NCBI GenBank assembly: GCA_965227875.1
Contig: OZ245783.1
Location: 4,442,356 to 4,506,355 of the forward strand
DNA from: Hyphomicrobiales bacterium
GTDB taxonomy: Bacteria; Pseudomonadota; Alphaproteobacteria; Rhizobiales; JAJFHC01
Reading direction: 5' to 3'
DNA length: 64,000 nt
Part shown: piece by piece, positions 1 to 15,045 of the stretch
How the letters are laid out: every line of letters begins with the position of its first letter
How positions within the stretch are numbered: position 1 is the stretch's first letter
Position numbers and translations under genes: made by a program
The notes under the pieces: generated by a model
Seen by the model: the letters and a program-made list of their open reading frames with translations, nothing else
What the model was told of the DNA's origin: nothing
Database searches by the model: none

Positions 1-725
1 TAGATCCCGAGATAGATCCCTCCGAGAATGGCGACGAAGAGCAGCACGATACCCCAGACCCGCATGAAGGCCTGGCCCCTTTCCGCCCAGGACGATTTCT
101 CAGCGGCGGGACCGGCGGAAGGGTCGCGGTAAACCGTCCATCGCACCGCGGCGAGGTAGAACAGGACACCGATGAGGCCGGGTATGACACCCGCCAGGAA
201 TAGCTTGTCGATGCTCTGTTCGGTCATGATGCCGTAGATGATGAGGATCACGCTGGGCGGAATCAGGATCCCGAGCGTGCCGCCGGCGGCGATCGAGGCC
301 GTCGCGAGCCTGTCGCTGTAGCCGAAGGCGCGCATCTGGGGCATGGCGACCTTGGACATGGTGGCCGCGGTCGCGAGCGAAGATCCGCAGATTGCGCTGA
401 ACCCGCCGCAGGCGACGATGGTGGCCATGGAAAGCCCGCCCTTGCGATGGCCGAGAAAGGCGTTGGACGCCCGGTAGAGATCGTTCGCCAGCCCGGCCTG
501 GCTGACCAGCATGCCCATCAGGATGAACAGCGGGACCACCGACAGGCTTTCCGTCTGCACCGTGTCGAGGATCGTACCGGCCGCCGGCGACAGCGAAGCC
601 CGCCAGTTCCAGTGGTTGATGGCCGCGAAACCGATCACGCCGACCAGTCCCATGGCATAGGCGATGGGCAGTCTGAGGAACACAAGCGCCAGAACGGCGG
701 CAAATCCGATCAGGGAGATTTCCAT
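1..725 (-). CDS. dctM: TRAP transporter large permease DctM (partial, runs off left edge)
   Basis: Own translation from ATG at 725: MEISLIGFAAVLALVFLRLPIAYAMG...FSAICGSSLATAATM...AAGGTLGILIPPSVILIIYG, the typical DctM motifs. Start overlaps the dctQ stop. Confidence 0.93.
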   Translation of the reverse strand, partial: MEISLIGFAAVLALVFLRLPIAYAMGLVGVIGFAAINHWNWRASLSPAAGTILDTVQTESLSVVPLFILMGMLVSQAGLANDLYRASNAFLGHRKGGLSMATIVACGGFSAICGSSLATAATMSKVAMPQMRAFGYSDRLATASIAAGGTLGILIPPSVILIIYGIMTEQSIDKLFLAGVIPGLIGVLFYLAAVRWTVYRDPSAGPAAEKSSWAERGQAFMRVWGIVLLFVAILGGIYLGI

Positions 726-1270
726 CAGACGTTCGGGTCCCGCATGTCTTTGCGCCGGCTCAACGGGGGATGGACGGCATAGGCGATGTCGATGAACAGC
801 TTGAAGAGCAGCGCCAGTCCCGCGACCAGCGTCATGAAGGTGACGAAATAGGCGATCGGATAGAGCGGCAGGTGCAGGAAGTCGGTGACGTAATTGCGCG
901 AATAGAGCCGGTCGGAGCGGAAGGCGAGCCAGTAGACCATGACGAGGAGACAGGCCGCGCCCAGAAGGTCGACGAGGCAGTCTCGCACATAGGCCGAGCG
1001 CCGGCCGAAATATCGGTCGAGAAGGTCAACCGTGATCTGTTCGCCCGTGACGGTCACCACCGGGAGGGCGCAGAAGATCATGGCGGCCATCATGAGACGG
1101 GTCAGTTCCGTCTTGCCGTTGACGGGCGCGTTGAGAATGTAGCGGCCGAAAACGTCGACACAGGTCAAGGCCAGCATGGCGAAGAGGATCGCCGCGCCGG
1201 CCAGCAACGTGACGCGGGCCAGCATGGTGCCGGCCCGCTCCAGTTTGTCTGTCAGTGTGACGAGAGCCAC
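725..1270 (-). CDS. dctQ: TRAP transporter small permease DctQ
   Basis: Four hydrophobic helices, DVFGRY..NAP and ITVDLL motifs, lies between dctP and dctM. Start set at GTG 1270 because the longer ORF overlaps dctP. Confidence 0.88.
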   Translation of the reverse strand: MALVTLTDKLERAGTMLARVTLLAGAAILFAMLALTCVDVFGRYILNAPVNGKTELTRLMMAAMIFCALPVVTVTGEQITVDLLDRYFGRRSAYVRDCLVDLLGAACLLVMVYWLAFRSDRLYSRNYVTDFLHLPLYPIAYFVTFMTLVAGLALLFKLFIDIAYAVHPPLSRRKDMRDPNV

Positions 1271-1277
1271 CGTCAGG

Positions 1278-2300
1278 TCACTTTTTGTATTCGGACATCG
1301 TCTTTGCAATGAAGTCGACCGCAGCCTGCGCATCGATGCCCTTGTCGGCGACTTCCTTGATGATCTTTTCGCGGATCGACTTGCCGACTTCGGCGAACAT
1401 TGCCTGGTCCTCGGCACTCGCTTCCTTCAGGTTCACGCCGACCTTCTTGGCGTTCTCGTATCCGACGACATCGGCATCCGCCCAGGCCTTGCCGGCCAGG
1501 GAAGACAGCGCCTCGCCCGTGGTGGACAGCACCGCTTCGCGATCCTTGTCGGACAGGCGCGACAGGGCCGCTTCGCTCATGATGATCGAGAACGAGCCGC
1601 GATAGAGACCGCCCGGCAGGGTCATCGTGTTGGGCGCCACCTCGAACAGCTTGAGGCTCTTGTTGGTTTCCATCGGCATCCAAACGCCGTCGGCCACGCC
1701 GCCGCTCAGGGTTTCATAGACTTTCGGCGCCGGAACCTGCACGCCGACCACGCCAAGGGCCGCGCCGACATCGGCACTCACGCCGCCACCGATCCGGATC
1801 TTCTTGCCATTGAGGTCGGCCAGTCCGTTGATCGCTTCGCGCATGTGGATCTGGCCGGGCCCGTGGGTCATCATGGCGATGACGCGAACGCCCTCATGCT
1901 CCTCGGCCTTGGCGAGAAACTTCTCGTGTGCTCGCCAGTGTGCGACCGATGCCGCTTCCGCGTCGCCCTCGTAGCCCGGAAGTTCGATCAGTTTGGTGGT
2001 GACGAAACGTCCGGGATTGTATCCGTGAAAGATCCAGGCGACGTCCGCGGTCCCGTCTTCCACGAGGTCGATCTGTCCTGGCGGCGGTGCCAGGCCGAAC
2101 TCGATCTTGCCGGTGACCCGGCCTTCGGTCGCTTCCTCGATCTGCTTGATCCATTGCGGGAACAGCACCGTGTTGACCGCATGCGGTGGTATCCAGCTCG
2201 AGATCTTGAGCACTTCCTGTGCGGACGCGGACACCACGCCGAAGCCCGCGACCGCTGCCGCAACCGATGCGGCGGCGAGCAATTTTCCGATGGATTTCAT
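1278..2300 (-). CDS. dctP: TRAP transporter substrate-binding protein DctP
   Basis: Signal peptide (MKSIGK...ASAQ), DLNGKKIR motif with the carboxylate-binding Arg, YETLSGGVADG. Confidence 0.92.
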   Translation of the reverse strand: MKSIGKLLAAASVAAAVAGFGVVSASAQEVLKISSWIPPHAVNTVLFPQWIKQIEEATEGRVTGKIEFGLAPPPGQIDLVEDGTADVAWIFHGYNPGRFVTTKLIELPGYEGDAEAASVAHWRAHEKFLAKAEEHEGVRVIAMMTHGPGQIHMREAINGLADLNGKKIRIGGGVSADVGAALGVVGVQVPAPKVYETLSGGVADGVWMPMETNKSLKLFEVAPNTMTLPGGLYRGSFSIIMSEAALSRLSDKDREAVLSTTGEALSSLAGKAWADADVVGYENAKKVGVNLKEASAEDQAMFAEVGKSIREKIIKEVADKGIDAQAAVDFIAKTMSEYKK

Positions 2301-2456: not shown

Positions 2457-3980
2457 TCAGACTGGATCCGGGCTGGCCGAAATCATTTCGGAAACCCTCT
2501 CCGTAACAATCTTCCCCATCGCGTTGCGGGGCAGATTGTCCACGAAATAGAAAGACTTGGGATGCTTGAAGCGGGCGATCTCGCGATCGAGGCGGCTTCT
2601 GATGAACGCCTCGTCGATCTCCGTGTCACCGGCCAGCACGATCGCCGCGACCGGCACCTCTCCCCAACGGTCGTCGGGCCGGCCGACGACGCAGCATTCG
2701 GCAATGCCCTCGACGGCGTTGAGGACCCGCTCGACTTCCGCGGCATAGATGTTCTCGCCGCCGGAAATGATGACCCTGTTGATCCTCTCCTGGAAATAGA
2801 GATAGCCGTCCGTATCGAACCGGCCGATATCCCCCGTGGCGAACCAGCCGTCCCTGAGCACTGCCGCGGTTTCGTCCGGCTTTCGCCAGTAGCCGCTCAT
2901 GACGTTCGGACCGCGAACCTCGATCTGGCCATCCTTGTCCGGCACTTCCACGGATTGGCCCCGGCTGTCGGTAAGGCGGACCGAACAGTGCAGCCCGGTT
3001 TTTCCGGTCGAGAGCGGATGGGTCCGCCCCTCGCCCGGCCGCTGGTAGACGGCGATCGGGCAGGTTTCCGTAGACCCGTAGACCTGGACCACGGGCACGC
3101 CCCGCGCTTCGAACGCTGAAATCAGGCCGGTCGGGACGACGGACGACCCGGTGGACAACATGCGCAGAGAGGACAGGTCGGCGTCCGCCCATCCCGCCTC
3201 CCGCATAATGGCTTCCATTGTTGCCGGGACAAGCACGGTCAGGCTCGGCCTGTCGGCGACGATCGCGTCCAGGGTAGCTCCCGGTTCGAAGCGTTCGTGC
3301 AGCAGGACGGTCGCGCCGCAATAGAGCGCCGGCGTGAGCTGGATGTTGAGGCCGCCGACGTGGAACAGCGGCAACACGGTGAGAATGACGTCGCTCGCAT
3401 GCATGGCGTGCATGTGCAGGCTGTTGAGCGCATTGAAGAACAGGGACCGCTGGGTATGCACCGCGCCCTTGGGGCGGCCGGTCGTCCCCGACGTGTAGAC
3501 GATGAGGATCGCGTCATCCGGCCCGCCCTCGTCCGTCCCGTCCTCGTCCGTCCCTTGACCGGCTGTCAGCGGCGTTCCCTCGAGGTCGTCATGGGTGGCG
3601 ACCGGCAGGCTGCCCGCGATGTTCCGGGCGGTCTCCCGGTGACTGTCGTCGCAAACCAGCAATCCGGGCGTACAATCGGAAATGACATATGCCATTTCCG
3701 CGTCCGCGAGCCGCCAGTTCATCGGCACCGCGATGGCACCGATGCGGGCACACGCGAAAAGCAGCGCGACCATCTCGGGATGGTTGAAGCCCAGGTAGCA
3801 GACCCTGTTGCCGCGCCGTATACCGTGAACGTCGCGGAGCGTGGCGGCGATCCCCCGCGACCAATGGGAGAGACGGCCATACGTGACCGGGTCCCGGCCG
3901 GGTACGGCAAGCGCGGGTTTGGCGGGCGTGAACCGTGCGTGGCAGTCGATCCAGCGGGCAATGCTGCCCGTCTCAGTCAT
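2457..3980 (-). CDS. Acyl/aryl-CoA ligase (AMP-binding)
   Basis: YTSGTTGRPKG, YGSTE, WFATGD and PRNAMGK motifs all intact. Confidence 0.92.
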   Translation of the reverse strand: MTETGSIARWIDCHARFTPAKPALAVPGRDPVTYGRLSHWSRGIAATLRDVHGIRRGNRVCYLGFNHPEMVALLFACARIGAIAVPMNWRLADAEMAYVISDCTPGLLVCDDSHRETARNIAGSLPVATHDDLEGTPLTAGQGTDEDGTDEGGPDDAILIVYTSGTTGRPKGAVHTQRSLFFNALNSLHMHAMHASDVILTVLPLFHVGGLNIQLTPALYCGATVLLHERFEPGATLDAIVADRPSLTVLVPATMEAIMREAGWADADLSSLRMLSTGSSVVPTGLISAFEARGVPVVQVYGSTETCPIAVYQRPGEGRTHPLSTGKTGLHCSVRLTDSRGQSVEVPDKDGQIEVRGPNVMSGYWRKPDETAAVLRDGWFATGDIGRFDTDGYLYFQERINRVIISGGENIYAAEVERVLNAVEGIAECCVVGRPDDRWGEVPVAAIVLAGDTEIDEAFIRSRLDREIARFKHPKSFYFVDNLPRNAMGKIVTERVSEMISASPDPV

Positions 3981-5226
3981 CGCTTTCGCCTGCTTCGTAA
4001 AGCGCTTCGCGTCCGATCCTGTCGAGGCAGAGTTCCGCCGTCCAGGGAAGCATCAGCGAGCCGCACCGGCTGTCGCGGTAGAGACGTTCCAGCGGCAGCG
4101 CACACAGCATGGACTGACCCCCGCATGTCCGGATTGCCAGCCGGCATAGGTCGTTGGCCGTTTCCATGACCGTGTACTGCGCGGTATAGGCCCGCAGCAC
4201 CTGCTCCTTGCTCGGTTGCGGGCCCGCTTCGGTGATCGCCTGGAACCAGATCGCCTTCGCGCATTCGAGCTTGGTGTGCATCTCGGCGACGGCGAGCTGT
4301 TTGGTGGGATACATGCGCCGCTTCACCGGCGGGGTTCCCGGCACCTCGCCGCGCAGGTAGCTCACGGTGAAATCATAGGCCGCCTGGGCGATGCCCATAT
4401 ATGTCGGCGAAAGCGTGAGAAACATGTGCGGCCAGGACGAGGCGGCCTGGAAATACACGCCCTGCGGCATGAGCTGGCCGTCGTCCTCCACGAAGACGTC
4501 GTCGAAGAGCAGCGTGCGCGAAACCGTGCCCCGCATGCCGAGCGGATCCCAGTCGCCCACTACGGAAATACCGTCGGCGTCCGCCGGGATGGCGAGATAG
4601 AGCGTGTCGCGCCGGCTCGGTTTGCGGTCTTCGTGGATCAGGGTGCACAGGACCCCGTAATAATCCGCATGGCCCGCCAGCGACGCGAAGATCTTCTTGC
4701 CGGAAACCCTGTATCCACCGTCGACCTTCGTGGCCTGAGTGGCGAAGGGCGTGAAACCCGCGGCCGCGGAACTGCCTTCGGAAAAGGGCTGCGAATAGAC
4801 CGCGCCATCGTCGAGGATCCGCCGGTAATGCACCGAGCGCCGACGCCGGTGTTCCTCGCGGTCGGCATCCGTCATGTCCAGATCGTCCGCGAGCGGCCCG
4901 CTCCACAGGCAAGAGCACACATGCATGTTCCAGGTCAGGGCGGTTGCACCGCAATAGCGGCCGATCTCGGCCGCGGTCAGGCAATAGGCGCGAAAGCCGG
5001 CCCCCTCGCCTCCGTCCTCTTCGGGAATGCAGATGCCGAGAAAATTATGCTCGTGCATATCCTTGTAGTTCTGCGAGGGAAACACCGCCTCGCGGTCCCA
5101 TTTCGAGGCCCGTTCGGCGAACAGCGTGCGGCCGAGTTCGCGGGCCTTCGCAGTCAGCCGGCTTTCCTGCTCGTCGAGCCGGAAGGCTTCGGGATCGAAC
5201 ATCGCCCTGTCGGCACTATCGCTCAT
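3973..5226 (-). CDS. Acyl-CoA dehydrogenase-fold flavoprotein (possibly a monooxygenase)
   Basis: SGKKIFAS, WDPLGMRGTVS and PLERLYRD motifs. Overlaps both neighbours. Confidence 0.85.
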   Translation of the reverse strand: MSDSADRAMFDPEAFRLDEQESRLTAKARELGRTLFAERASKWDREAVFPSQNYKDMHEHNFLGICIPEEDGGEGAGFRAYCLTAAEIGRYCGATALTWNMHVCSCLWSGPLADDLDMTDADREEHRRRRSVHYRRILDDGAVYSQPFSEGSSAAAGFTPFATQATKVDGGYRVSGKKIFASLAGHADYYGVLCTLIHEDRKPSRRDTLYLAIPADADGISVVGDWDPLGMRGTVSRTLLFDDVFVEDDGQLMPQGVYFQAASSWPHMFLTLSPTYMGIAQAAYDFTVSYLRGEVPGTPPVKRRMYPTKQLAVAEMHTKLECAKAIWFQAITEAGPQPSKEQVLRAYTAQYTVMETANDLCRLAIRTCGGQSMLCALPLERLYRDSRCGSLMLPWTAELCLDRIGREALYEAGESDD

Positions 5227-5965
5227 CTGCTGTCTCCTTCAGGAAGGTACGGATCGCTGAGTTGAAGGCTGCCGGCCGCTCGAGGTTGGCCAGGTGACCG
5301 GCCTCCGGGATCTCGTGAAACCGGCTGCCGGGGATTTTCGCGGCCATCCGGGACATCATCGCGGCCGGCGCGCTGGCGTCCTTTTCCGCGGCGAGGACGA
5401 ACGTCGGCATGGATATGTCGGCCAGCGAGGCCCTGAGGTCGAAGGTCACGAGAAGTTCCATGGAGGCGCGGTAAGTGGCCTGTTCGACACTGGACATGGC
5501 CTCGACCGCGACCGCGCGTCCGTCATCGTCCGCGCCGTCCGCCATCAGGGACGCGACGATCCCCGGGGCGAGGTCGGCCATCGTCCGTCCGGCATCGAGC
5601 GGACCGAGACGGTCGGCGACGAAGCGCTTCTGGAATTCACCGTCCGGGTTGCCGAACGCGGGGCTCGTGCCCGAGAGGACAAGTCGGCTGATCCGCCCCG
5701 GATGGGTCTTGGCCAGTTGCTGCGCGATCATGCCGCCGAACGAATGGCCAACGACCACCGCACGGTCGATGCCAAAAGCCGTCATGTCTTCGGCAAGCCG
5801 ATCCGCGATGGCCTCGAATGTGAAGGGGTCCGGCAGCGGACGGCCGCCATAGCCCGGCACGTTCCAGCAAAGCACGCGGTGATCGGCGGAAAAATGGCGC
5901 ACCTGTTCCGGCCAGACACGCGAGGACCCGCCCACACCGTGCACGAAGATCATGGTGCCGGTCAT
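5216..5965 (-). CDS. Alpha/beta hydrolase (position equivalent to NicD deformylase)
   Basis: C-terminal part of the 589-aa ORF. Real start MTGTMIFVHG overlaps the upstream stop (ATGA). GHSFGG nucleophile elbow, EKD, GHLANLE. Confidence 0.85.
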   Translation of the reverse strand: MTGTMIFVHGVGGSSRVWPEQVRHFSADHRVLCWNVPGYGGRPLPDPFTFEAIADRLAEDMTAFGIDRAVVVGHSFGGMIAQQLAKTHPGRISRLVLSGTSPAFGNPDGEFQKRFVADRLGPLDAGRTMADLAPGIVASLMADGADDDGRAVAVEAMSSVEQATYRASMELLVTFDLRASLADISMPTFVLAAEKDASAPAAMMSRMAAKIPGSRFHEIPEAGHLANLERPAAFNSAIRTFLKETADER

Positions 5966-7011
5966 CCGAACACCCCTTCGACGATATCGCCGGCGTCGAT
6001 CACGGTCTCTCCGTCCAGGGTGATCGTGCACCCCCTTACCGGCAGGTCGAAATGACCCTCCGTGAACCGCCCGGCAAACTCGTTCGCACCCGTAGAGAAC
6101 AGGAAATTGCCGGCATAGGCCCGGACTTCCGTCCCGTTCGTGTCCCTCTGGTCGTAGAACGCGAGCGCCTCGTAGCGCGCGTTCGGGTTCATCCCCCAGC
6201 CGACGTGCGACACCGCATAGGCTTCCCGGTCGCCCCAGGCGGACATGTAGCGCCGCATGAGTTCGGCGTCCGTGCCGTCGCCGTCGATACGGGTCACGTA
6301 GTCGTCCTCGATCACAAGCGTGACCGGACGCTCGAGATATCTCTTGAAGGTGAGGTTCACGTCTCCCGCATCGAGGACCAGGGTCCCGTTCACGCTGCCT
6401 GCCCTGGGGAAGGAGACCACAAGGCCGGCCGGCCAGTGGGCGACGGTGCCGGGGCGATCCGTATAGCCCCAGACCCCCGCCGTCGACGCGCCTTCCATGA
6501 CGACGTCGAGATCGGTCCCGGCAGCCGAGGTGACCTTCATCGACGACGTGGCCCGGCACCGCTTGATCGCCGCCTTGACCCGTGGGGTCAGCTCGGGGTC
6601 GGGTGCAAGGCGTTCCAGCGCGTCGGGGTGTTCGTTGGAGATCATCAGGACGCGGGGGCCGGATTTGAGAATACCGGGAAGCTCGGGGGCATGGAGCAGC
6701 CCCTCGACGGTCAGGTCGACCACCATGGTGCAGGCGCCCAGGGCGGCGAGGATGCACGGATGCTCCTTCAGGGAATGCGAACCTCCGGTTGAGCGCACAG
6801 GCACCGGTGCGGTCTGCGGCGGCGTGACCGCGGTAACGTGTACGGGTCTGGCGCCCAGTTCCAGGAGGGCGAGTTCGGTCAGGTGGACGTTGAGCGCGCG
6901 GGACTGGGTCTCGGACAGGATCGCGACCGCTTCGCCTTTGCCGACGTTGCAGAGCCTGAAAACATCGAGGAAGGCCTCGATCCATCGCCGTTCGATCCGG
7001 TCGTTCAGCAT
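5962..7011 (-). CDS. NicX-like (M29-fold) 2,5-dihydroxypyridine 5,6-dioxygenase family protein
   Basis: About 349 aa. LLH, HWP, GTLVLDAGD, SHVGWG, GNFLFSTG and HFD match P. putida NicX as I recall it, including the His/His/Asp Fe(II) triad. Confidence 0.82.
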   Translation of the reverse strand: MLNDRIERRWIEAFLDVFRLCNVGKGEAVAILSETQSRALNVHLTELALLELGARPVHVTAVTPPQTAPVPVRSTGGSHSLKEHPCILAALGACTMVVDLTVEGLLHAPELPGILKSGPRVLMISNEHPDALERLAPDPELTPRVKAAIKRCRATSSMKVTSAAGTDLDVVMEGASTAGVWGYTDRPGTVAHWPAGLVVSFPRAGSVNGTLVLDAGDVNLTFKRYLERPVTLVIEDDYVTRIDGDGTDAELMRRYMSAWGDREAYAVSHVGWGMNPNARYEALAFYDQRDTNGTEVRAYAGNFLFSTGANEFAGRFTEGHFDLPVRGCTITLDGETVIDAGDIVEGVFG

Positions 7012-7058
7012 GGGCGTTCTCCGTATTCGCGCGAGAGGAAGGCTATCAGATCGCAAAT

Positions 7059-7076
7059 TATGTGCAAATGGAAATG
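7059..7076. promoter_or_regulatory. Putative operator TATGTGCAAATGGAAATG upstream of the nicX-like operon
   Basis: Imperfect palindrome (ATnTnCA-NN-TGnAnAT) in an AT-rich spacer. 13/18 match to the reverse complement of the hmg-type operator consensus. Confidence 0.5.
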
Positions 7077-7092
7077 TTTATATCTAAAATAA

Positions 7093-7524
7093 TCAGGATT
7101 TCTTATCATCGGGCAGCACGAGTTTTTGCAATATCGACTTCAGCGTCCCGATCTCGTCGGCGGACAGCCCGCTGGTGTCGAGGTCTTCCCGGTCCCGCGC
7201 AGCGGCGATCAGCGCTCGCGCCAGGTCCCGGCCATGGTGCGTCAGCACGAGCCTCACGTTCCGCCGGTCGGCCGAATCCGCGGTCCGGCTGACGAGGTTT
7301 CGCATTTCCATGCCGTCGAGGCGGCGTGAGAGTGTCGATTGCGGAACGAGAACATGGCCCGCGAGACGCGAGATGCTCATCCCCTGCTCGGCATCGTAGA
7401 GCGTGGACAGAACACGCCATTCCGATTCCTTGATTGCCTGCTGCTTGAGCGTGCGGTGGAATGGCAGGCTTGTTTTCTCCGCTGCCTGGGCAAGCAGGTA
7501 GGGGAGATAATTCTCGACGAACAT
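7093..7524 (-). CDS. MarR family transcriptional regulator
   Basis: YLPYLL, EWRVL, winged HTH and DRR wing motif. Confidence 0.92.
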   Translation of the reverse strand: MFVENYLPYLLAQAAEKTSLPFHRTLKQQAIKESEWRVLSTLYDAEQGMSISRLAGHVLVPQSTLSRRLDGMEMRNLVSRTADSADRRNVRLVLTHHGRDLARALIAAARDREDLDTSGLSADEIGTLKSILQKLVLPDDKKS

Positions 7525-7620
7525 GTCTGCTGGGCCGTCCCTTGGTTGCGCCTGTGTCTAGGCAACACGTTCGCGCCGGGATATTCAACAACAAGGACGT
7601 CATATGGCGAGGATGGGACA

Positions 7621-8904
7621 ATGACCATGGACACGCAGGCCCACTGGCTTCCGCGACGCCAGGCCGACCCCGGCTGGAGCGAGGCGGAGGAACGTGACGT
7701 GATCGAACGGTTCGATCCGCGGAACCTTCCCCGGTCCTTCTACGACAATCCCTACCCCGTCTATCGCGCACTTCTGCGCCATGATCCGGTCCACCTGTGT
7801 CCGGACGGCTCCTATTTCGTCTGCCGCTATGCAGACCTGCTGGAAATCTACCGGGACACCAGGCGCTACAGTTCCGACAAGAAGAAGGAGTTCGGGCCCA
7901 AATACGGAGAGTCGCCGCTTTTCGAACATCATACGACGAGCCTTGTCTTCAACGATCCGCCGCTCCATACGCGTGTCCGCAAGCTCATCGTGGGCGCCCT
8001 CACGCCGCGCGCCATCGCCAGCATGGAAGCGGGGCTGATCGCCCTGGTCGACGGACTCCTCGACCGCGCGCAGGACAAGGGTGAGTTCGACCTGATCGAG
8101 GATTTCGCCTCCGCCATACCGGTCGAGATCATCGGCAACCTGCTTGGCGTGCCCCGTGAGGAAAGAGAACCGCTGAGGAACTGGTCGCTTGCGATCCTCG
8201 GTGCGCTCGAACCGACGCTGACGCCCGACCAGGAAAGACGGGGCAACGAGGCCGTGGTCGAGTTCGTCGACTACCTGAGGACACTCGTCGCCGACCGCCG
8301 CAAGAATCCCGGCGACCCCTCGTCCGATGTCCTGACACGCCTCATTGAGGGCGAGATCGACGGCGAGAAACTGAGTGAGACCGAACTCCTGCAGAACTGC
8401 ATCTTCATCCTGAACGCCGGGCACGAAACGACCACCAACCTGATCGGAAACGGGCTTTATGCGCTCATGGAATGGCCGGATGAACGCGCCCGCCTGCTGG
8501 ACGATCCGGGCCTGATCGACAGCGCCGTCGAGGAGTTCCTGCGGTTTGAGAGCTCCAACCAGCTCGGCAACCGCATCACGACGGGACCGGTCGAACTGGG
8601 CGGCCTCTCCATGCCTGCAGACACGCGTATTACCCTGTGCATCGGCGCGGCCAACCGGGATCCGGCCCAGTTCCCCGACCCGGACCGGCTTGACGTTTCA
8701 CGGCATCCGAACCGCCATCTCGCCTTTGCGTCCGGTCCGCACACCTGTGCAGGACTGAGCCTCGCCCGGCTGGAGGGCAAGATCGCGATTTCCCGCTTCA
8801 TCGACCGCTTTCCGGATTACGGGCTGAGTGGCCAGCCCGTCCGCGGAGGCCGTGTCAGGTTTCGCGGATTTCTGAGCGTTCCGCTCTCGACGGGGCATCA
8901 CTGA
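7621..8904 (+). CDS. Cytochrome P450
   Basis: DPPLHTRVR, AGHETT (I-helix), EEFLR (ExxR), HLAFASGPHTCAG (heme Cys). Confidence 0.95.
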   Translation: MTMDTQAHWLPRRQADPGWSEAEERDVIERFDPRNLPRSFYDNPYPVYRALLRHDPVHLCPDGSYFVCRYADLLEIYRDTRRYSSDKKKEFGPKYGESPLFEHHTTSLVFNDPPLHTRVRKLIVGALTPRAIASMEAGLIALVDGLLDRAQDKGEFDLIEDFASAIPVEIIGNLLGVPREEREPLRNWSLAILGALEPTLTPDQERRGNEAVVEFVDYLRTLVADRRKNPGDPSSDVLTRLIEGEIDGEKLSETELLQNCIFILNAGHETTTNLIGNGLYALMEWPDERARLLDDPGLIDSAVEEFLRFESSNQLGNRITTGPVELGGLSMPADTRITLCIGAANRDPAQFPDPDRLDVSRHPNRHLAFASGPHTCAGLSLARLEGKIAISRFIDRFPDYGLSGQPVRGGRVRFRGFLSVPLSTGHH

Positions 8905-8981: not shown

Positions 8982-9944
8982 ATGAAAATCGGATTCATCG
9001 GACTTGGAAACGTCGGCGGCAAACTCGCCGGCAGCATACTCCGCAACGGACATGACCTGACGGTCCGCGATCTCGACCGTTCGGCGGCACAGCCGTTCCT
9101 CGACAATGGCGCAGGCTGGGCGGACACGCCGCGCGAACTGGCCCAAGCCTGCGACATCGTCATCACCTGCCTTCCCTCTCCGGCCGCCAGCGCCGCGGTG
9201 ATGGAAGCCGAAGACGGTGTGCTTGCCGGGTTCTCCGAAGGCAAGATCTGGCTCGAGATGTCGACGACAGACCAGGCCGAAGTCAAACGTCTCGGAGAGA
9301 AAGTCCTCGCTGCCGGTGGCGAAGCCGTGGACTGTCCGGTCTCGGGCGGCTGCCATCGCGCAGCGACTGGAAACATATCCATTTTCGCAGGGTGCGAGCG
9401 CCATACGTTCGAGAGGATCCTGCCCGTGCTCACCACGCTTGGGCGCAGGGTTCTGCATACCGGACCGCTCGGGTCGGCCTCCGTCCTCAAGGTCATGACC
9501 AATTATCTCGCCACGGCCAATCTCGTGACACTGTGCGAGGCGCTGACCACGTGCAAGATGGCCGGCATGGATATCAACACCACCTACGAGGCGATCAAGA
9601 TTTCGTCGGGCAATTCCTTCGTCCACGAGACCGAAAGCCAGGTCATCCTGAACGGGTCCCGCGATATCAACTTCACCATGGACCTGGTTCTGAAGGATAT
9701 CGGCCTGTTCCAGGACATCGCCGAGCGTGCCGGCGTGCCGCTCGAAGTGTCACCGCTGCTGATCAGCATATTCAAGGACGGTCTCGAGAAATACGGAGCG
9801 AGGGAATGGTCTCCGAACATCATCAGGCGTCTCGAGGACGCATGCGGTACCGAGGTGTTGGCCCCCGGCTTCCCCGCCGAAATGGTCGACGACGAACCGG
9901 AGGAGCCCGGATACGAAGTCATCCCGACAGGGCGTCCGGCCTGA
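8982..9944 (+). CDS. 3-hydroxyisobutyrate/beta-hydroxyacid dehydrogenase family oxidoreductase
   Basis: IGFIGLGNVG Rossmann motif, DCPVSGG, catalytic K in KVMTN, GGAGG RBS. Confidence 0.9.
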   Translation: MKIGFIGLGNVGGKLAGSILRNGHDLTVRDLDRSAAQPFLDNGAGWADTPRELAQACDIVITCLPSPAASAAVMEAEDGVLAGFSEGKIWLEMSTTDQAEVKRLGEKVLAAGGEAVDCPVSGGCHRAATGNISIFAGCERHTFERILPVLTTLGRRVLHTGPLGSASVLKVMTNYLATANLVTLCEALTTCKMAGMDINTTYEAIKISSGNSFVHETESQVILNGSRDINFTMDLVLKDIGLFQDIAERAGVPLEVSPLLISIFKDGLEKYGAREWSPNIIRRLEDACGTEVLAPGFPAEMVDDEPEEPGYEVIPTGRPA

Positions 9945-9946
9945 GT

Positions 9947-10147
9947 TCAGTCTGTCCTGTCGCCTCGCGCCAGTTCCAGGGCCTGCGCTATGACGTCTTC
10001 GTCGCCGATGTGGTTGGCCAGCACGAGGACCAGCCGTGCGTTGAACGCGGCGCTTTCCGCCATGTCGAGCCCCTGGTGCGCGGCGAGGATCCGGTTGTAG
10101 ACCACATCTGCATTTTCGAGGTTCGGTGATTTTACGAGTTCACTCAT
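9947..10147 (-). CDS. DUF2783 small protein (MhaB-like coupling subunit)
   Basis: 66 aa, ARLVLVLANHIGD motif, overlaps the stop of the FAD monooxygenase gene. Confidence 0.85.
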   Translation of the reverse strand: MSELVKSPNLENADVVYNRILAAHQGLDMAESAAFNARLVLVLANHIGDEDVIAQALELARGDRTD

Positions 10148-11738
10148 CGGACTGTCCCGTAGCCTTTCTCAGTGCGGCATCTATCCTGCCGGCATCGTAA
10201 TGGCGCCACCGCGCGCAAAGATGCTGGTCGGGGCGGACGAGGTAACACGCCCCCGGCGTTGCATCGAAACGCTCAGCGAAGAGGCCGTCGGCGTCCACAT
10301 ACTGCGTCCCGATACGCAGTGTCGCGATATCGCGGTCGAGGCCTCCGGTATCTTGCTCGTCCGTCACGATCAGCGTGAAACCCGGGCCCAGCAGATCGAG
10401 CAGCCAGACGGGTTGGCCGTCGCGGTCCTGCAGCGGTGTATCCGGGACCACCCCTCCGAGAGATGCACGCCCGCCGAACGTATCCATATCCGGCGTCGTA
10501 AGGTCCGTATCATAGACGCAGGGTGTCGAGAGACGGCCGGAATTCACCATCGTGCGTGCGAACGGCGCCCGCGAGGCGAGGTCCAGGACCGCGTCGCGAA
10601 AGAGCCGGGTCACGTCGTCGGCGGGTGCGATGAAGTCGGTGCTCCGCGTCGAATGGCCGATATTCTCATCCGCCGCCTGGCTTCGTTCGTCGTGATAGGA
10701 CCCGATAAGCGATGCCGGGGAACGGCCTGTAAGGACGCGTTCGAGTTTCCAGGCCAGGTTTTCCGCATCCTGCACGCCGCTGTTTGCGCCCCGGGCACCG
10801 AATGGCGAGACCTGGTGCGCGCTGTCGCCGGCGAAGATCGTGCGCCCGTGAACGAACTGCTCGATGCGCCGGCACTGAAACGTGTAGACGCTCACCCACT
10901 CCAGTTCGAATTCGCGCCCGCCGAGCATCTTCTCGAGCCGGGGCCGCACGCGGTCCGGGCGCGCTTCGACCTCCGGGTCGGCGTCCCATCCCAGTTGGAG
11001 GTCGATGCGCCAGACGTTGTCGGGCTGCTTGTGCAGGAGCGCGGACTGCCCGTTGTGGAAAGGCGGTTCGAACCAGAACCAGCGCTCGGGCGGAAAATCC
11101 GCGGACATGCGCACGTCGGCAATGAGAAACCGGTCCTCGAACACCTGCCCACGGAAGGCGATCCCGAGCATGTCGCGCAAGGCCGACCTTGCGCCGTCGG
11201 CTGCCACCAGGTAGTCGGCGTGAAGGCGGTACGGGCCGTCCGGCGTATCGATCGCCACGTCGACACCTTCGGTCGCGTTCCTGACGCCCGTGACCCTGTT
11301 CTTCCAGCGCAGGTCGATAAGCTCGTTCCGCGCACAGGCCGCCGCCAGGTGCGCCTCGACATAATATTGCTGCAGGTTGATGAAGGCCGGCATCTTGTGG
11401 CCCGGTTCCGGCAGCAGGTCGAAGGAATAGACTTCCGCGTCGCGCCAGAAAAGACGGCCCAGGTTCCAGGTCACGCCCTTCTCCACCTGCCAGTCGGCGA
11501 CGCCGAGACGATCAAAGATCTCGAGCGTGCGCTTCGAGAAGCAGATGGCCCGTGAGCCTTCGCCGATGCGGTTGTTGTCGTCGAGCAGCACGACCGGGAC
11601 GCCGCGTTGTGCCAGATCGAGCGCGAGCGTCATCCCGACAGGACCGGCACCGACGACGACAACCTTGTGGCGCGCGGGAGTGCCGGCGTCCTGATCGGTC
11701 GAGCGCGTGTAGCTGTACTGGTAGGTATGTTCAGGCAC
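10140..11738 (-). CDS. FAD-dependent aromatic monooxygenase (MhaA-like hydroxyphenylacetate hydroxylase candidate)
   Basis: GAGPVG, ADGARS and GDSAHQVSPFGARGANSG fingerprints, C-terminal LVRPDQH domain, located in the hmgA operon. Confidence 0.88.
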   Translation of the reverse strand: MPEHTYQYSYTRSTDQDAGTPARHKVVVVGAGPVGMTLALDLAQRGVPVVLLDDNNRIGEGSRAICFSKRTLEIFDRLGVADWQVEKGVTWNLGRLFWRDAEVYSFDLLPEPGHKMPAFINLQQYYVEAHLAAACARNELIDLRWKNRVTGVRNATEGVDVAIDTPDGPYRLHADYLVAADGARSALRDMLGIAFRGQVFEDRFLIADVRMSADFPPERWFWFEPPFHNGQSALLHKQPDNVWRIDLQLGWDADPEVEARPDRVRPRLEKMLGGREFELEWVSVYTFQCRRIEQFVHGRTIFAGDSAHQVSPFGARGANSGVQDAENLAWKLERVLTGRSPASLIGSYHDERSQAADENIGHSTRSTDFIAPADDVTRLFRDAVLDLASRAPFARTMVNSGRLSTPCVYDTDLTTPDMDTFGGRASLGGVVPDTPLQDRDGQPVWLLDLLGPGFTLIVTDEQDTGGLDRDIATLRIGTQYVDADGLFAERFDATPGACYLVRPDQHLCARWRHYDAGRIDAALRKATGQSDE

Positions 11739-11761
11739 GGCACGTCACCCGGGCAAGGGGG

Positions 11762-12712
11762 TCAGTTCTGTAGCTGCTGCCACATCTCCTGGTCGCGGAC
11801 GTCCGTCCAGATCTTGGGATGGTCCATGCCCTTCGCTTCGTCGTAGGCGCGGGAGACGTTGAACGGCAGGCAGTGCTCGAAAATCACCCAGTCCCCGTAT
11901 TTGGGGGACATGGATTCCTTCACGGCGTCGAATGTTTCCTTGAGCGAGGATCCCTTGGCCACGTGCTCGCGCACGATGCCGTAGAGCGTTTCGAGAAAGC
12001 CGCGGGTACCGGCGATGCCGTCCCGGACCATGTCTGCCGAGGTCAGCGCGTCGCCGCGGCCCGGCACGAGTTTCTCGGCACCGAAGGAGTCGAGACGTTC
12101 GAGCGTGGTCGGCCAGTCGGAGAAATGCGCATCCCCGCAATAGGGTGCCGCGCCGTATTCGACGAGATCGCCGGAAAACATCACCTTGGCGTCGGGAACC
12201 CAGGCCACGATATCCCCCATCGTGTGGCCGCGTCCGATATGCATCAGGCGGACCTCGCGATCGCCCAGCCAGAGCGACATGGAACTCTCGAAGGTCATGG
12301 TCGGCCATGTCAGGCCGGGCACGCTGTCGGCGGCCTGAAACAACCGCGGGAATCTTCCGTATTCGGAGTCCCAGTCCTGCTGGCCACGCTCGACGATCAT
12401 GTTGCGCGTCAGGTTGGACGCGATGATCTCCTGCGCGCCGTATCCCGAGGCGCCGAGAACGCGCACCGCGTGATAGTGGGTGAGGACCACGTGTTTCACC
12501 GGCTTGTCGGTGACGGTGCGGATCTTCTCGATCACGGTCTGCGCCATGACCGGCGTCGCCTGGGCGTCGATGACGATACAGCCGTCGTCGCCGACGATCA
12601 CGCCGCTGTTCGGGTCTCCTTCGGCCGTGAACGCATAGAGACCTTCGCCCAGTTCGGCGAAAGTGATCTGTTTCTCCGCCATGTCGCCGGTCGAGGCAAA
12701 TCCCTTAGACAT
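11762..12712 (-). CDS. MBL-fold metallo-hydrolase with atypical metal motif
   Basis: VID, THYHAVR (instead of HxHxDH), GHT, SGD and PGRG motifs. Confidence 0.88.
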   Translation of the reverse strand: MSKGFASTGDMAEKQITFAELGEGLYAFTAEGDPNSGVIVGDDGCIVIDAQATPVMAQTVIEKIRTVTDKPVKHVVLTHYHAVRVLGASGYGAQEIIASNLTRNMIVERGQQDWDSEYGRFPRLFQAADSVPGLTWPTMTFESSMSLWLGDREVRLMHIGRGHTMGDIVAWVPDAKVMFSGDLVEYGAAPYCGDAHFSDWPTTLERLDSFGAEKLVPGRGDALTSADMVRDGIAGTRGFLETLYGIVREHVAKGSSLKETFDAVKESMSPKYGDWVIFEHCLPFNVSRAYDEAKGMDHPKIWTDVRDQEMWQQLQN

Positions 12713-13688
12713 CGTATCTCACCACCTTCTGTTTGATTGCTCCGAAGACGGACCCGCCGTCCCTGTCCAACATCTCGATCCGGATCGTATCCCCGAAACG
12801 CATGAATGGCGTTCGCGCCTCGCCTTCGTCGATGATCTCGATCATGCGTTTTTCCGCAAGGCAGCAGGAACCCCGTGTCCTGTCGCGATTGGACACCGTG
12901 CCTGACCCGATGATCGTCCCTGCCCCCAGCGGCCGCGTGCGTGCGGCGTGTGCGATCAGTTCCGGCAGCGAGAAATTCATGTCGACACCGGCATCCGGAT
13001 CGCCGAACCATGCGTCGTTGTAATCGACGCGCAGTGGCAGGTGGATCTTTCCGTCCTTCCAGGCCGGACCCAGCATGTCGGGGGTCACGGCCACGGGGCC
13101 GAATGCGCTCGAGGGTTTTGCCTGGAAGAACCCGAAGCCCTTGCCGAGTTCACCAGGGATGAGATGGCGCAGGCTGACATCGTTGACGATCATCAGCAGC
13201 TTGACATGCCCGGCCGCGGCTTCGGCCGAAACGCCCATCGGGACGTCGTCGGTCACCACGGCCACCTCGGCCTCGAAATCGATCCCCCAGGCCTCGTCGG
13301 CGATCTCGATGTCCTGGCGCGGGTCGAGAAAGCTGTCGGACCCGCCCTGGTACATCAGCGGGTCGGTGAGAAAGCTCTCCGGCATCTCGGCGTTGCGTGC
13401 CTTGCGCACCAGTTCGGCATGGTTGAGATAGGCGCTTCCGTCAGCCCACTGGTAGGCGCGCGGCAGTGGCGACCGTGCCATGTCCTGGTCGAACGGTTCG
13501 CCTGCGTCCCGGTTCGCGTCGAAGGCATGCCATGCGTCGCGCATGGGGCTCTCCATATCGGACCAGTTGTCCAGCGCGGCCTGGAGCGTTGGCGCGAAAC
13601 CGTCCGCCGCTGTCTGGCGGGACAGGTCTGCGGACACGAAAACGAGCCTGCCGTCGCGCTGTCCGTTCCCGAGCGTGGCCAGTTTCAC
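12705..13688 (-). CDS. Fumarylacetoacetate hydrolase family protein
   Basis: DFEAEVAV, NDVSLR and GTIIGSGTVS motifs, directly downstream of hmgA. Confidence 0.9.
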   Translation of the reverse strand: MKLATLGNGQRDGRLVFVSADLSRQTAADGFAPTLQAALDNWSDMESPMRDAWHAFDANRDAGEPFDQDMARSPLPRAYQWADGSAYLNHAELVRKARNAEMPESFLTDPLMYQGGSDSFLDPRQDIEIADEAWGIDFEAEVAVVTDDVPMGVSAEAAAGHVKLLMIVNDVSLRHLIPGELGKGFGFFQAKPSSAFGPVAVTPDMLGPAWKDGKIHLPLRVDYNDAWFGDPDAGVDMNFSLPELIAHAARTRPLGAGTIIGSGTVSNRDRTRGSCCLAEKRMIEIIDEGEARTPFMRFGDTIRIEMLDRDGGSVFGAIKQKVVRYDV

Positions 13689-13730
13689 CTGGATGCTCCT
13701 CCCGTATGCGGCCGTCGTTGACGCAAGGCC

Positions 13731-14903
13731 CTATTCCGCCGCCTGCCGCGGGATCGAGGGGGCCTTCACCGGGCCGTCCTTCGCCTTCCAGCTCTCGGAA
13801 TACTCCGCGAACTCGACGCCGGCCGCGTCGTCTCCCATTTCGAGGGCGTCCCGGGTGTCGAGCATGACGGCGTATTCGTCGGTCGCGGCTTTGCGCGCCT
13901 CGTACATCGCCTGCAGCGCCTTGGGATGTGGACCGTGGGTGAAACCGCAAGGGTGCCAGGTCACCATGCCCGCTTCGATGTTGTCCCGGCTGAAGAAATC
14001 GCCGGCGTGATAGAAGATGACCTCGTCATAGTCGTCATTGTTGTGGAAAAACGGCACCTTGAGCGCGCCCGGGTCGCTTTCGAAGGGCCGCGGCGTGAAG
14101 GTGCAGATGACGAACCGGTTCCCCACCCAGGTCGTGTGGGCCGAGGGCGGCAGGTGGTAGCGGTGGCTCATCAGCGGCCGGATGTCCTTCACGTTGAGCC
14201 GCACGGGCGAGAGATCGCCGTGCCATCCCACCGCGTCGAGCGGGTTGAACGGATAGGTGACCGTCGAGAGCCGGTTGCGGCGCTTGATGTGCACTTGCCA
14301 TTCCTTCTCGTCCTTCTGGTCCTTGAAGGCTTCGTCGATCGCGGGTGTATCGAGAATGGCTTCGTCATAGACGGCATGGCGGCCCACGAGACCGCGCTCG
14401 GGGATCTTGTAGGAGCCGTTCGTGCTCTCGATCAGCAACATCGTCACGGGAGACGACGATTCGACCCGCCACATCGTGCTGCGGGGCAGGACCACATAAT
14501 CGCCCGTGGCGAATTCCAGATGGCCGTAGTCGCAGAAGAGCGAGCCGCTGCCCCGGTGAATGAACAGCAGTTCATCCCCGTCGCCATTGCGCACCAGGTG
14601 GTCCATCTTCCCGTCGCTCACCCAGTGGCGCATCTTGACGTGGGAATTGTGCAGCACAAGCCTGGCGTCCCAGGGGCTCGCCGTCGGCTTGTCGAACTTC
14701 GCCAGGTCGAACGCCCGCGGCCTGAGAGGGCCTTCCCAACTCAGCCAGCCGGTCGGCGGATGGCTGTGGTACATCATCGTGGCCGGCCCGAAAAAGCCTT
14801 CCTTGCCGAGTTCGCGTTCGAAGGTGCCCTCGGGCAGGTCGCAATGTGCCTGTCGCGATGCCTCGCCCTCGATGCGCGGAAAGGAAACGTAATTGCTGCC
14901 CAT
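13731..14903 (-). CDS. hmgA: Homogentisate 1,2-dioxygenase
   Basis: RNGDGDELLF, PLDAVGWHG, HLPPSAHTT, PFFHNNDDYDE and HGPHP Fe-ligand regions. Confidence 0.92.
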   Translation of the reverse strand: MGSNYVSFPRIEGEASRQAHCDLPEGTFERELGKEGFFGPATMMYHSHPPTGWLSWEGPLRPRAFDLAKFDKPTASPWDARLVLHNSHVKMRHWVSDGKMDHLVRNGDGDELLFIHRGSGSLFCDYGHLEFATGDYVVLPRSTMWRVESSSPVTMLLIESTNGSYKIPERGLVGRHAVYDEAILDTPAIDEAFKDQKDEKEWQVHIKRRNRLSTVTYPFNPLDAVGWHGDLSPVRLNVKDIRPLMSHRYHLPPSAHTTWVGNRFVICTFTPRPFESDPGALKVPFFHNNDDYDEVIFYHAGDFFSRDNIEAGMVTWHPCGFTHGPHPKALQAMYEARKAATDEYAVMLDTRDALEMGDDAAGVEFAEYSESWKAKDGPVKAPSIPRQAAE

Positions 14904-15030: not shown

Positions 15031-15045
15031 AAATCACGGAAATCC

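What the first reader, a model, noticed from the sequence alone, without database searches (positions are those of the whole stretch)
2457..8904. Candidate undescribed N-heterocycle degradation route: NicX-like dioxygenase + hydrolase + ACAD-fold flavoprotein + CoA ligase, with MarR and P450
Seen: four genes with overlapping start/stop codons (7011 to 2457), the first keeping SHVGWG and HFD, plus an adjacent marR and divergent P450. Known: NicX/Hpo cleave 2,5-dihydroxypyridine, and their clusters carry a deformylase, maleamate amidase and maleate isomerase, with a NicC-type monooxygenase in the nicotinate route. No amidase, isomerase or NicC gene is in this cluster; a CoA ligase and an ACAD-fold protein stand in their place. 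Inference: a CoA-dependent variant in which a substituted pyridine or pyridone is activated and hydroxylated before ring cleavage, or the ring-fission product is processed as a CoA ester. I know of no characterised pathway with this composition. This is the best candidate for a novel system in the window.
Basis: partly seen in the sequence, partly recalled or inferred. Interest (0 to 1): 0.75.

Follow-up and report, generated by a model that had tools for sequence, protein, structure and literature searches.

The report
Conserved candidate indole-acid ring-opening operon
Four overlapping genes form a widespread, unstudied bacterial operon whose iron enzyme lacks a residue that binds the textbook pyridine substrate; its regulator type and partner genes suggest it likely opens indole acids such as the plant hormone auxin to anthranilate.

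Summary
Four overlapping genes (7011-2457) encode a NicX-fold Fe(II) dioxygenase, an alpha/beta hydrolase, an ACAD-fold flavoprotein and a CoA ligase, followed by a TRAP transporter.

The module is conserved. In 80 related loci the ACAD occurs in 64, the ligase in 59 and the hydrolase in 49. Dioxygenase and ACAD co-occur in 35 of 36 genomes. The P450 is accessory (1 of 80).

The pyridine reading is weak. All iron ligands are kept, but Glu177, which binds 2,5-dihydroxypyridine, is lost in 105 of 105 clade members. The ACAD has no catalytic Glu, and relatives carry a flavin reductase, so it is likely a monooxygenase.

Three clues point to an indole acid:
- The MarR is of the auxin-binding IadR type.
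- The accessory opine-dehydrogenase pair has auxin-induced namesakes in Variovorax.
- An anthraniloyl/salicylyl-CoA monooxygenase occurs in 34 of 36 carriers versus 14 of 44 others.

Best reading (about 50%): indole acid to hydroxyindole, N-acylanthranilate, anthraniloyl-CoA. Main rival: gentisyl-CoA-type cleavage. No substrate is shown.

The parts
5962..7011 (-). NicX-fold non-heme Fe(II) dioxygenase of an uncharacterised subfamily (349 aa). H269/S306/H320/D322 = NicX iron ligands; R297, H107, H192, E311 kept; V180 replaces Glu177
   Evidence: PMC7910607
5216..5965 (-). Alpha/beta hydrolase (249 aa; S75, D196, H224), PcaD-like rather than NicD-like; likely deacylase of the ring-fission product
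3973..5226 (-). ACAD-fold flavoprotein (417 aa) without the catalytic Glu; likely oxygenase component of a two-component (group D) flavin monooxygenase
2457..3980 (-). Acyl/aryl-CoA ligase (507 aa); nearest solved relative is a feruloyl-CoA synthetase; not benzoate-CoA-ligase family
1278..2300 (-). TRAP solute-binding protein DctP (carboxylate importer); linked to the module in 13 of 80 loci
725..1281 (-). TRAP small permease DctQ (start codon uncertain)
1..725 (-). 5' part of TRAP large permease DctM (runs off the window)
   Evidence: junction; homolog L001:8511-9857 is DctM
7093..7524 (-). MarR repressor of the IadR (auxin-binding) type; Y6, S19, H23, W36, R37 match MarR_73 Y15, S28, H32, W45, R46 in register
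7060..7075 (.). Candidate degenerate MarR operator, overlapping a sigma70-like promoter (-35 at 7086-7081, -10 at 7062-7057); weak in this genome
   Evidence: 46 of 500 shuffles score as high
7621..8904 (+). Cytochrome P450, accessory: beside the module only in a small subclade (window, L001, L151, L162)

Best explanation
This is a conserved MarR-linked operon that likely degrades an indole carboxylic acid (auxin-like, such as indole-3-acetate or indole-3-carboxylate) by opening the pyrrole ring to an anthranilate, which would then enter the 2-aminobenzoyl-CoA (Abm) pathway. Inferred steps: (1) the TRAP system imports the acid, which releases the IadR-type MarR. (2) The Glu-less ACAD-fold flavoprotein, fed by a flavin reductase, hydroxylates the pyrrole ring to an indoxyl-type hydroxyindole. 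(3) The NicX-fold Fe(II) enzyme cleaves the C(OH)=C-N bond, the same enol-enamine cleavage NicX performs on 2,5-dihydroxypyridine, giving an N-acyl (N-formyl) anthranilate. (4) The alpha/beta hydrolase removes the acyl group. (5) The ligase makes a CoA ester, either of the incoming acid or of the anthranilate product; the order is open. Shown: genes, conservation, residues and partner genes. Inferred: every reaction and the substrate.
For: Iron ligands H/S/H/D, R293 and H105 are kept in 105 of 105 clade members; E177 is lost in 105 of 105 and T176 is G/A in all. The clade is separated from nic-type NicX by a long, fully supported branch. ACAD: no Glu at the MCAD-type C-terminal position (RDSRCGSLMLP) or the LCAD-type helix position (positions recalled); the nearest PDB sequences are 5GJ7/5Z8T, and 5Z8T is titled flavin-containing monooxygenase. 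A flavin reductase lies within 1.5 kb upstream in 27 of 80 genome loci and in 32 of 80 metagenome loci. MarR: the profile's best structures are 3CDH and 7KFO (E 8e-47 and 1e-45; next family 4e-25), both IadR-group proteins binding IAA at 0.24 and 0.41 uM (PMC9613470). The IAA contacts are kept across the 93 module MarRs: Y 92, S 66, H 80, W 92, R 93; the control MarR of the hmg cluster lacks Y, S and H. A palindrome ATATGAA-N2-TTCATAT lies upstream in 54 of 73 loci with the MarR versus 2 of 75 without. An opine dehydrogenase plus PRK08269 dehydrogenase pair flanks the module in 18 of 80 loci. A pair with these annotations sits beside iadR in Variovorax and beside the iac genes of P. putida 1290, and is IAA-induced (Suppl. 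Tables 1 and 9 of PMC9613470); orthology to our pair is inferred from annotation and gene order, not aligned. AbmA-type PRK08255: 34 of 36 module-positive versus 14 of 44 module-negative genomes, stronger than PobA (30/36 vs 23/44), KynU (24/36 vs 10/44) and IadA-like IOR (23/36 vs 8/44). It is adjacent in 5 of 80 genome loci and 8 of 80 metagenome loci; L267 reads AbmA>reductase>dioxygenase>hydrolase>ACAD>ligase on one strand. The window's genome has a full abm-type cluster. ACAD-fold group D monooxygenases act on IAA (IacA, PMC7225977), and N-formylanthranilate was proposed as an indole intermediate in older bacterial work (PMC6221969).
Against: There is no biochemical, genetic or expression evidence. 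MarR_73 also binds benzoate, salicylate and phenylacetate at 10-14 uM, so the regulator type does not prove an indole. His189, which binds the 2-oxygen of dihydroxypyridine, is kept in 104 of 105, which fits a para-diol at least as well. The ligase is not of the benzoate-CoA-ligase family, and the genome's abm cluster has its own such ligase, so an anthranilate-ligase role would be redundant. No entry named IacA or XiaF is among the 56 PDB hits of the ACAD profile. PRK08255 is also the salicylyl-CoA 5-hydroxylase family, so that link supports rival 1 too. PobA, KynU and IOR are also enriched, so an aromatic-degrader lifestyle and shared ancestry inflate all the co-occurrences. The window's subclade sits by homogentisate genes. 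No flavin reductase is in the window; the genome's only hit lies beside an HpaB-like gene. The window's operator is degenerate. The genome of L014 gave no AbmA match (completeness unknown).
Confidence: 0.5

Rival explanations
1. Carbocyclic para-diol route. A hydroxybenzoate or hydroxyphenylalkanoate is CoA-activated and hydroxylated to a 2,5-dihydroxyaryl compound (gentisyl-CoA type, or 5-hydroxyanthraniloyl-CoA from AbmA). The dioxygenase cleaves it between C5 and C6, exactly as NicX cleaves 2,5-dihydroxypyridine but with C1-R in place of N1-H. The hydrolase releases formate or the thioester.
For: The geometry maps one-to-one onto the NicX substrate: E177 lost, H105 and H189 kept, V175/T176 smaller. 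The PRK08255 salicylyl-CoA 5-hydroxylase family is linked. The module sits beside hmg, pca/pob and hpa genes in several loci. The ligase is nearest to feruloyl-CoA synthetase, and the hydrolase is PcaD-like.
Against: If AbmA makes the para-diol, the ACAD-fold monooxygenase, the tightest partner of the dioxygenase (35 of 36 genomes), has no role. This reading does not explain the IadR-type MarR or the opine-dehydrogenase pair known from auxin loci. No aldehyde dehydrogenase or maleylacetate reductase is conserved nearby.
Confidence: 0.22
2. One reading: an N-substituted 2-pyridone, or a pyridine-alkanoate, is CoA-activated, 5-hydroxylated by the flavoprotein, cleaved 5,6 and deformylated.
For: The only characterised members of the family cleave pyridines (PMC7910607). 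Loss of E177 and a glycine-rich 175-177 segment would make room for an N1 substituent. H189 is kept.
Against: No amidase, maleate isomerase or NicC/NicD homolog is found in 80 loci. The hydrolase is 21% identical to NicD. There is no link to molybdenum hydroxylases or other pyridine genes, and the AbmA and IadR links are unexplained.
Confidence: 0.12
3. Non-oxygenase reading: the M29-fold protein is a peptidase or amidase, and the ACAD plus ligase shorten an acyl side chain by beta-oxidation.
For: Database names are often 'peptidase M29' and 'acyl-CoA dehydrogenase'. The top Foldseek hits of the ACAD model are true acyl-CoA dehydrogenases.
Against: The NicX iron site is complete, and TM is 0.90 to NicX against <=0.64 to aminopeptidases. 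There is no Pfam M29 hit. The ACAD has no catalytic Glu and travels with a flavin reductase; ETF genes are nearby in only 4 of 80 loci.
Confidence: 0.05

Closest known systems
NicX/Hpo 2,5-dihydroxypyridine 5,6-dioxygenase and NicD of the nicotinate (maleamate) pathway, P. putida KT2440 (PDB 7CN3; PMC7910607)
   Same: Fold (TM 0.90), 36-38% identity, His/Ser/His/Asp iron site, R293, L104-H105, H189; an alpha/beta hydrolase next door.
   Different: Separate clade; Glu177 lost throughout; hydrolase not a NicD ortholog; no NicC/E/F; paired with an ACAD-fold monooxygenase, a flavin reductase and a CoA ligase.
iad auxin pathway of Variovorax and Bradyrhizobium (PMC9613470; bioRxiv 10.1101/2025.10.25.684584)
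   Same: IadR-type MarR, a CoA ligase, anthranilate as the likely product, and a neighbouring opine dehydrogenase plus 3-hydroxyacyl-CoA-dehydrogenase-like pair.
   Different: iad attacks with the Rieske enzyme IadCDE and goes via dioxindole-3-acetate; the preprint excludes N-formylanthranilate. No NicX-like or ACAD-fold oxygenase gene is in the published iad gene table, and no Rieske pair is conserved with this module.
iac auxin pathway: IacA (ACAD-fold group D monooxygenase) plus IacG reductase (PMC7225977)
   Same: ACAD-fold flavin oxygenase with a separate reductase; acts on the indole pyrrole ring.
   Different: iac ends in catechol via IacE and the Rieske IacCD, uses an IacR-type MarR and has no NicX-fold enzyme. 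Orthology of the ACAD here to IacA was not tested directly.
2-aminobenzoyl-CoA (Abm) pathway / salicylyl-CoA 5-hydroxylase family PRK08255
   Same: Co-occurs with and often adjoins the module; the likely sink for its product.
   Different: A separate, described pathway with its own benzoate-family CoA ligase; not part of this locus.
Sister cassette with a glutamine-synthetase-like ligase and APC permease (e.g. Ensifer adhaerens plasmid NZ_CP083351, L093)
   Same: Dioxygenase (50-52%), ACAD (about 50%), hydrolase and flavin reductase in the same order; E177 also lost.
   Different: A gamma-glutamyl-ligase-like enzyme, TetR and an amine permease replace the CoA ligase, MarR and carboxylate transporter; also uncharacterised.

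Membership tests
NicX/Hpo 2,5-DHP dioxygenase | M29-derived NicX fold | tested here: met
   TM 0.90 to 7CN3; E 7e-60
NicX/Hpo 2,5-DHP dioxygenase | Fe(II) ligands H265, S302, H318, D320 and R293 | tested here: met
   H269, S306, H320, D322, R297; 105 of 105
NicX/Hpo 2,5-DHP dioxygenase | Substrate triad H105, E177, H189 | tested here: not met
   H105 and H189 kept; E177 is V180 here and non-acidic in 105 of 105
NicX/Hpo 2,5-DHP dioxygenase | Maleamate-pathway neighbours (NicD, NicF, NicE) | tested here: not met
   0 of 80 loci at >=40% identity
NicX/Hpo 2,5-DHP dioxygenase | O2-dependent cleavage of 2,5-DHP | not testable with these tools
   needs an enzyme assay
M29 aminopeptidase (AmpS/AmpT/PepS) | Full M29 profile and about 410-aa architecture | tested here: not met
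   no Pfam or NCBIfam hit; TM 0.55-0.64
Acyl-CoA dehydrogenase | Catalytic Glu at the MCAD or LCAD position | tested here: not met
   no conserved Glu at either place; reference positions recalled
Group D two-component flavin monooxygenase | ACAD fold | tested here: met
Group D two-component flavin monooxygenase | Partner flavin reductase gene | tested here: inconclusive
   27 of 80 and 32 of 80 related loci; none in this window, one unlinked in the genome
Group D two-component flavin monooxygenase | C-terminal His stabilising C4a-hydroperoxyflavin (recalled from DszC and HpaH-C2) | tested here: not met
   the motif is RDSRCGSLMLPW; an invariant H102 lies elsewhere
Group D two-component flavin monooxygenase | Reduced-flavin-dependent oxygenation | not testable with these tools
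   needs an assay
NicD N-formylmaleamate deformylase | Orthology to nic-cluster NicD | tested here: not met
   21% over 180 aa; Ser-Asp-His motifs present
IadR-group MarR | IAA contacts Y15, S28, H32, W45, R46 | tested here: met
   in register in the window protein; Tyr at the A18 position as in IAA-binding 3CDH; V65 not assessed
IadR-group MarR | Binds IAA with sub-micromolar KD | not testable with these tools
   needs ITC
Benzoate/2-aminobenzoate-CoA ligase family (TIGR02262) | Profile match above cut-off | tested here: not met
   not among the 25 best NCBIfam hits, unlike the abm-cluster ligase of the same genome
iad/iac auxin loci | Adjacent Rieske IadDE/IacCD pair | tested here: not met
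   no Rieske pair among recurring neighbours; a single Rieske alpha subunit in L162

The most novel reading that the evidence does not exclude
A third aerobic auxin/indole-acid degradation route, distinct from iac and iad, widespread in Bradyrhizobium, marine Hyphomicrobiales and Betaproteobacteria. It would use the first NicX-family enzyme that cleaves a hydroxyindole, supply genes for the long-proposed N-formylanthranilate step, and feed anthraniloyl-CoA to AbmA. The sister cassette would do the same for an indole amine with gamma-glutamylation in place of CoA.
Probability: 0.35. Interest if true: 0.82.

Novelty: new variant of a known kind. Interest (0 to 1): 0.62.

Why it matters
The dioxygenase subfamily is large (about 1300 stored stretches estimated in the GTDB collection; 36 of 301 sampled genomes of the order). 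It is annotated as 2,5-dihydroxypyridine dioxygenase or peptidase M29, and both labels are probably wrong. All characterised NicX enzymes act on one substrate, so a second substrate would open a little-known non-heme iron family. If the substrate is an auxin-type indole, the operon adds a missing route for plant-hormone and tryptophan-derived indole turnover in rhizobia and marine bacteria. The regulator, its operator and the AbmA link make the substrate testable with a small compound panel.

Tried and rejected
Homarine pathway: homABCDE has a different gene set and the paper has no NicX mention (PMC13236597 passages); rejected.

P450 as a core member: 1 of 80 loci; 3 of the further loci examined carry a close ortholog in total (L001, L151, L162); of 17 loci centred on this P450 family only L202 has the module, about 5 kb away; rejected as core.

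The HIBADH-like gene at 8982-9944 and the HAD gene are not conserved with the module.

Opine dehydrogenase pair as an obligatory part: 15 of its 24 carrier genomes have the module and 9 do not; accessory.

A first ORF clustering was spoiled by antisense shadow ORFs and redone by tblastn.

Spaced-palindrome enumeration gave no clear motif. The operator came from a seed chosen by eye and then refined, so its counts are partly fitted.

Foldseek of the ACAD model did not separate oxygenases from dehydrogenases.

Literature searches that found no description of this gene set. The library is open-access only, so subscription papers and preprint supplements were not seen.


Full report
Observation. 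The window holds, on the minus strand, a NicX-like gene (5962-7011), an alpha/beta hydrolase (5216-5965), an ACAD-fold gene (3973-5226) and a CoA ligase (2457-3980), overlapping by 4, 11 and 8 nt. Then follow TRAP genes dctP (1278-2300), dctQ and dctM. marR (7093-7524) is co-directional upstream and the P450 (7621-8904) is divergent. The genome is a single 5.3-Mb contig with one copy of the dioxygenase. Its relatives in the same order include Bradyrhizobium-type genomes, so I take it to be Hyphomicrobiales (inference).

The dioxygenase. Its only PDB sequence hit is NicX (E 7e-60). The AlphaFold model (pLDDT 91) matches NicX with TM 0.90 and aminopeptidases with 0.55-0.64. I read parts 1-3 of 6 of PMC7910607: iron is held by H265, S302, H318 and D320; R293 positions D320; E177 and H189 bind N1 and the 2-oxygen of the substrate, and E177A leaves 2.7% activity. 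Among 105 relatives at >=56% identity, all keep the four ligands, R293, H105 and E308, and 104 keep H189. None keeps E177 (V 88, I 13, G 3, A 1), and T176 is G or A in all. Of 13 distant relatives that sit beside a NicD homolog, 12 keep E177. A 62-row tree (a subset: all rows under 63% plus every fourth of the rest) puts the window's clade, with the 50-52% sister group inside it, on a 100/100 branch apart from nic-type NicX. So it works like NicX but is not a member by the substrate test.

Conservation. In the best 80 of 578 confirmed GTDB loci, the ACAD is present in 64, ligase 59, hydrolase 49, MarR 46, flavin reductase 32 (27 within 1.5 kb upstream), PRK08269 dehydrogenase-like 22, opine dehydrogenase 18, DctP 13 and P450 1; many loci end at contig edges. 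In 80 metagenome loci fetched with a betaproteobacterial query, the 31 with adequate flanks hold ACAD 31, hydrolase 30, ligase 26 and reductase 16. In 301 genomes of the order, 36 have the dioxygenase clade and 35 the ACAD; all 35 are among the 36, the exception being a 77% complete assembly, and in seven the two genes are unlinked. A sister cassette swaps the CoA ligase for a glutamine-synthetase-like ligase and an APC permease.

The flavoprotein. It has no conserved Glu at either catalytic position of acyl-CoA dehydrogenases (positions recalled). The closest PDB sequences are 5GJ7 and 5Z8T, the latter titled flavin-containing monooxygenase; nitrososynthase-type oxygenases align through the C-terminal motif where dehydrogenases stop. 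With the linked reductase, in some lineages fused to the MarR, a group D monooxygenase is the best reading. It lacks the C-terminal His I recall from DszC and HpaH-C2, and this window has no reductase gene; the genome's one hit is beside an HpaB-like gene.

Clues to the substrate. (a) A profile of ten module MarRs hits 3CDH and 7KFO-series structures at about 1e-46, the next family at 4e-25. PMC9613470 (passages, parts 2-3 of 11, Suppl. Tables 1 and 2, rows of Tables 9 and 10) identifies these as IadR-group repressors binding IAA at 0.24 and 0.41 uM. MarR_73 binds indole-3-carboxylate at 4.6 uM and benzoate, salicylate and phenylacetate at 10-14 uM. The window MarR has Y6, S19, H23, W36 and R37 in register with Y15, S28, H32, W45 and R46; 62 of 93 module MarRs have the full Y-Y-S-H-W-R pattern seen in 3CDH. 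A palindrome ATATGAA-N2-TTCATAT lies upstream of the dioxygenase in 54 of 73 loci with a MarR and 2 of 75 without (shuffles: mean 1.2 of 148). The window's own site at 7060-7075 is weak (46 of 500 shuffles), while its closest relative's is strong (2 of 500).

(b) An opine dehydrogenase plus 3-hydroxybutyryl-CoA-dehydrogenase-like pair flanks the module in 18 of 80 loci and lies elsewhere in this genome. Genes with these annotations sit next to iadR in Variovorax, have homologs next to the iac genes of P. putida 1290, and rise with IAA (opine dehydrogenase z -1.6 to +1.5 in wild type, -1.6 to +3.3 in the iadDE mutant). Their USDA110 homologs carry gene numbers consecutive with a hydrolase and an SDR, as in the Bradyrhizobium arrangement of L088; orthology is inferred, not aligned.

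(c) The PRK08255 enzyme (2-aminobenzoyl-CoA monooxygenase/reductase, salicylyl-CoA 5-hydroxylase) is in 34 of 36 module-positive and 14 of 44 module-negative genomes, the negatives being hand-picked from the same 301-genome sample. Controls on the same 80 genomes: PobA 30/36 vs 23/44, kynureninase 24/36 vs 10/44, IadA-like oxidoreductase 23/36 vs 8/44. Kin are not independent, so the Fisher values overstate. Eleven of the 12 positive genomes without kynureninase still have the enzyme. It adjoins the module in 5 of 80 genome loci and 8 of 80 metagenome loci, and L267 is a single run of AbmA, reductase, dioxygenase, hydrolase, ACAD and ligase. This genome has an abm-type cluster at about 5.11 Mb with its own benzoate-family ligase.

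Mechanism. NicX cleaves an enol-enamine, C(OH)=CH-NH, to an acid and a formamide. A 3-hydroxyindole has the same unit and would give N-formylanthranilate; loss of E177 and a glycine-rich 175-177 segment would make room for the fused benzene ring. This reading gives every gene a role and explains the regulator and the AbmA link. Which indole acid, where the ring is hydroxylated, and whether the ligase acts before or after cleavage are open; the ligase is not of the aminobenzoate-ligase family and would be redundant with the abm ligase. I put this at 0.5. The main rival (0.22) is 5,6-cleavage of a gentisyl-CoA-type para-diol: it maps atom for atom on the NicX substrate, keeps a role for H189, and fits the hmg, pca and hpa neighbours and the salicylyl-CoA name of PRK08255, but leaves the monooxygenase and the IadR-type regulator less well explained. 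An N-substituted pyridone (0.12) and a non-oxygenase reading (0.05) come last.

Comparison with the literature. iad uses a Rieske enzyme, and the 2026 preprint 10.1101/2025.10.25.684584 (passages) rules out N-formylanthranilate there. iac uses the ACAD-fold IacA, which does not oxidise indole-3-carboxylate or tryptamine (PMC7225977 passages). An indole route through indoxyl and N-formylanthranilate was proposed in 1953 without genes, and an aminobenzoyl-CoA cluster is needed for indole degradation in one studied strain (PMC6221969 passages). The homarine operon is different (PMC13236597 passages). Searches found no paper on this gene set; they cover open-access text only.

Earlier scan notes. 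The same module was noted in other genomes (e1-2112636, e1-2112641, e1-3148894, e1-2292577) and the sister cassette too (e1-2968549, e1-5278674). These are unchecked AI notes and are not support.

Verdict. Real, conserved and apparently undescribed; a new variant of NicX-type ring-cleavage catabolism, probably not for pyridines. Interest 0.62.

Noticed in passing
window 10140-15486: FAD monooxygenase (PRK08132), MBL hydrolase, FAH-family hydrolase, short-form HmgA-like cupin and a second MarR. This block adjoins the module in L154, L162, L164 and L165, and a PRK08132-like gene does in L026, L027 and L058. L162 has a canonical HmgA where the window has the divergent short form.
   Followed up: partly
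window 7621-8904: The P450 belongs to a family found in 18 of 251 genomes of the class, usually as an orphan in unrelated neighbourhoods; no redox partner gene is beside it here.
   Followed up: partly
window 8982-9944: 3-hydroxyisobutyrate-dehydrogenase-like gene downstream of the P450, not conserved with the module.
   Followed up: partly
L087:715-11410 (genome C1 about 914.7-925.4 kb): Hydantoinase/caprolactamase-like A and B subunits, thiolase-like gene, acyl-CoA dehydrogenase, TetR and the opine dehydrogenase pair, with an IadA-like oxidoreductase about 15 kb away; the same block is in L218. It resembles the oxindoleacetate-opening iaa genes of Aromatoleum (recalled).
   Followed up: partly
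L045:8859-9860, L002:8857-9819, L273:4393-5442: Flavin reductase fused to the module's MarR, the same architecture as the HpaH C1 reductase.
   Followed up: partly
L093:9001-16729, L091, L092: Sister cassette with a glutamine-synthetase-like ligase, SRPBCC-like-hydrolase fusion, TetR, flavin reductase and APC permease; in L091 preceded by a nitrilase and a gentisate-dioxygenase-like cupin.
   Followed up: partly
L096, L143, L146, L147, L167, L168: Another NicX-like clade (Q at the E177 position in most) sits with an HpaB-type monooxygenase, amidases and a flavin reductase: a further uncharacterised ring-cleavage module.
   Followed up: no
L098:6950-10700: Haloarchaeal plasmid with a NicX-like gene (S at E177) beside a TPP enzyme, aspartate-dehydrogenase-like gene and Rieske genes.
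   Followed up: no
window 15518-16240: Type II haloacid-dehalogenase-like gene after the second MarR.
   Followed up: no
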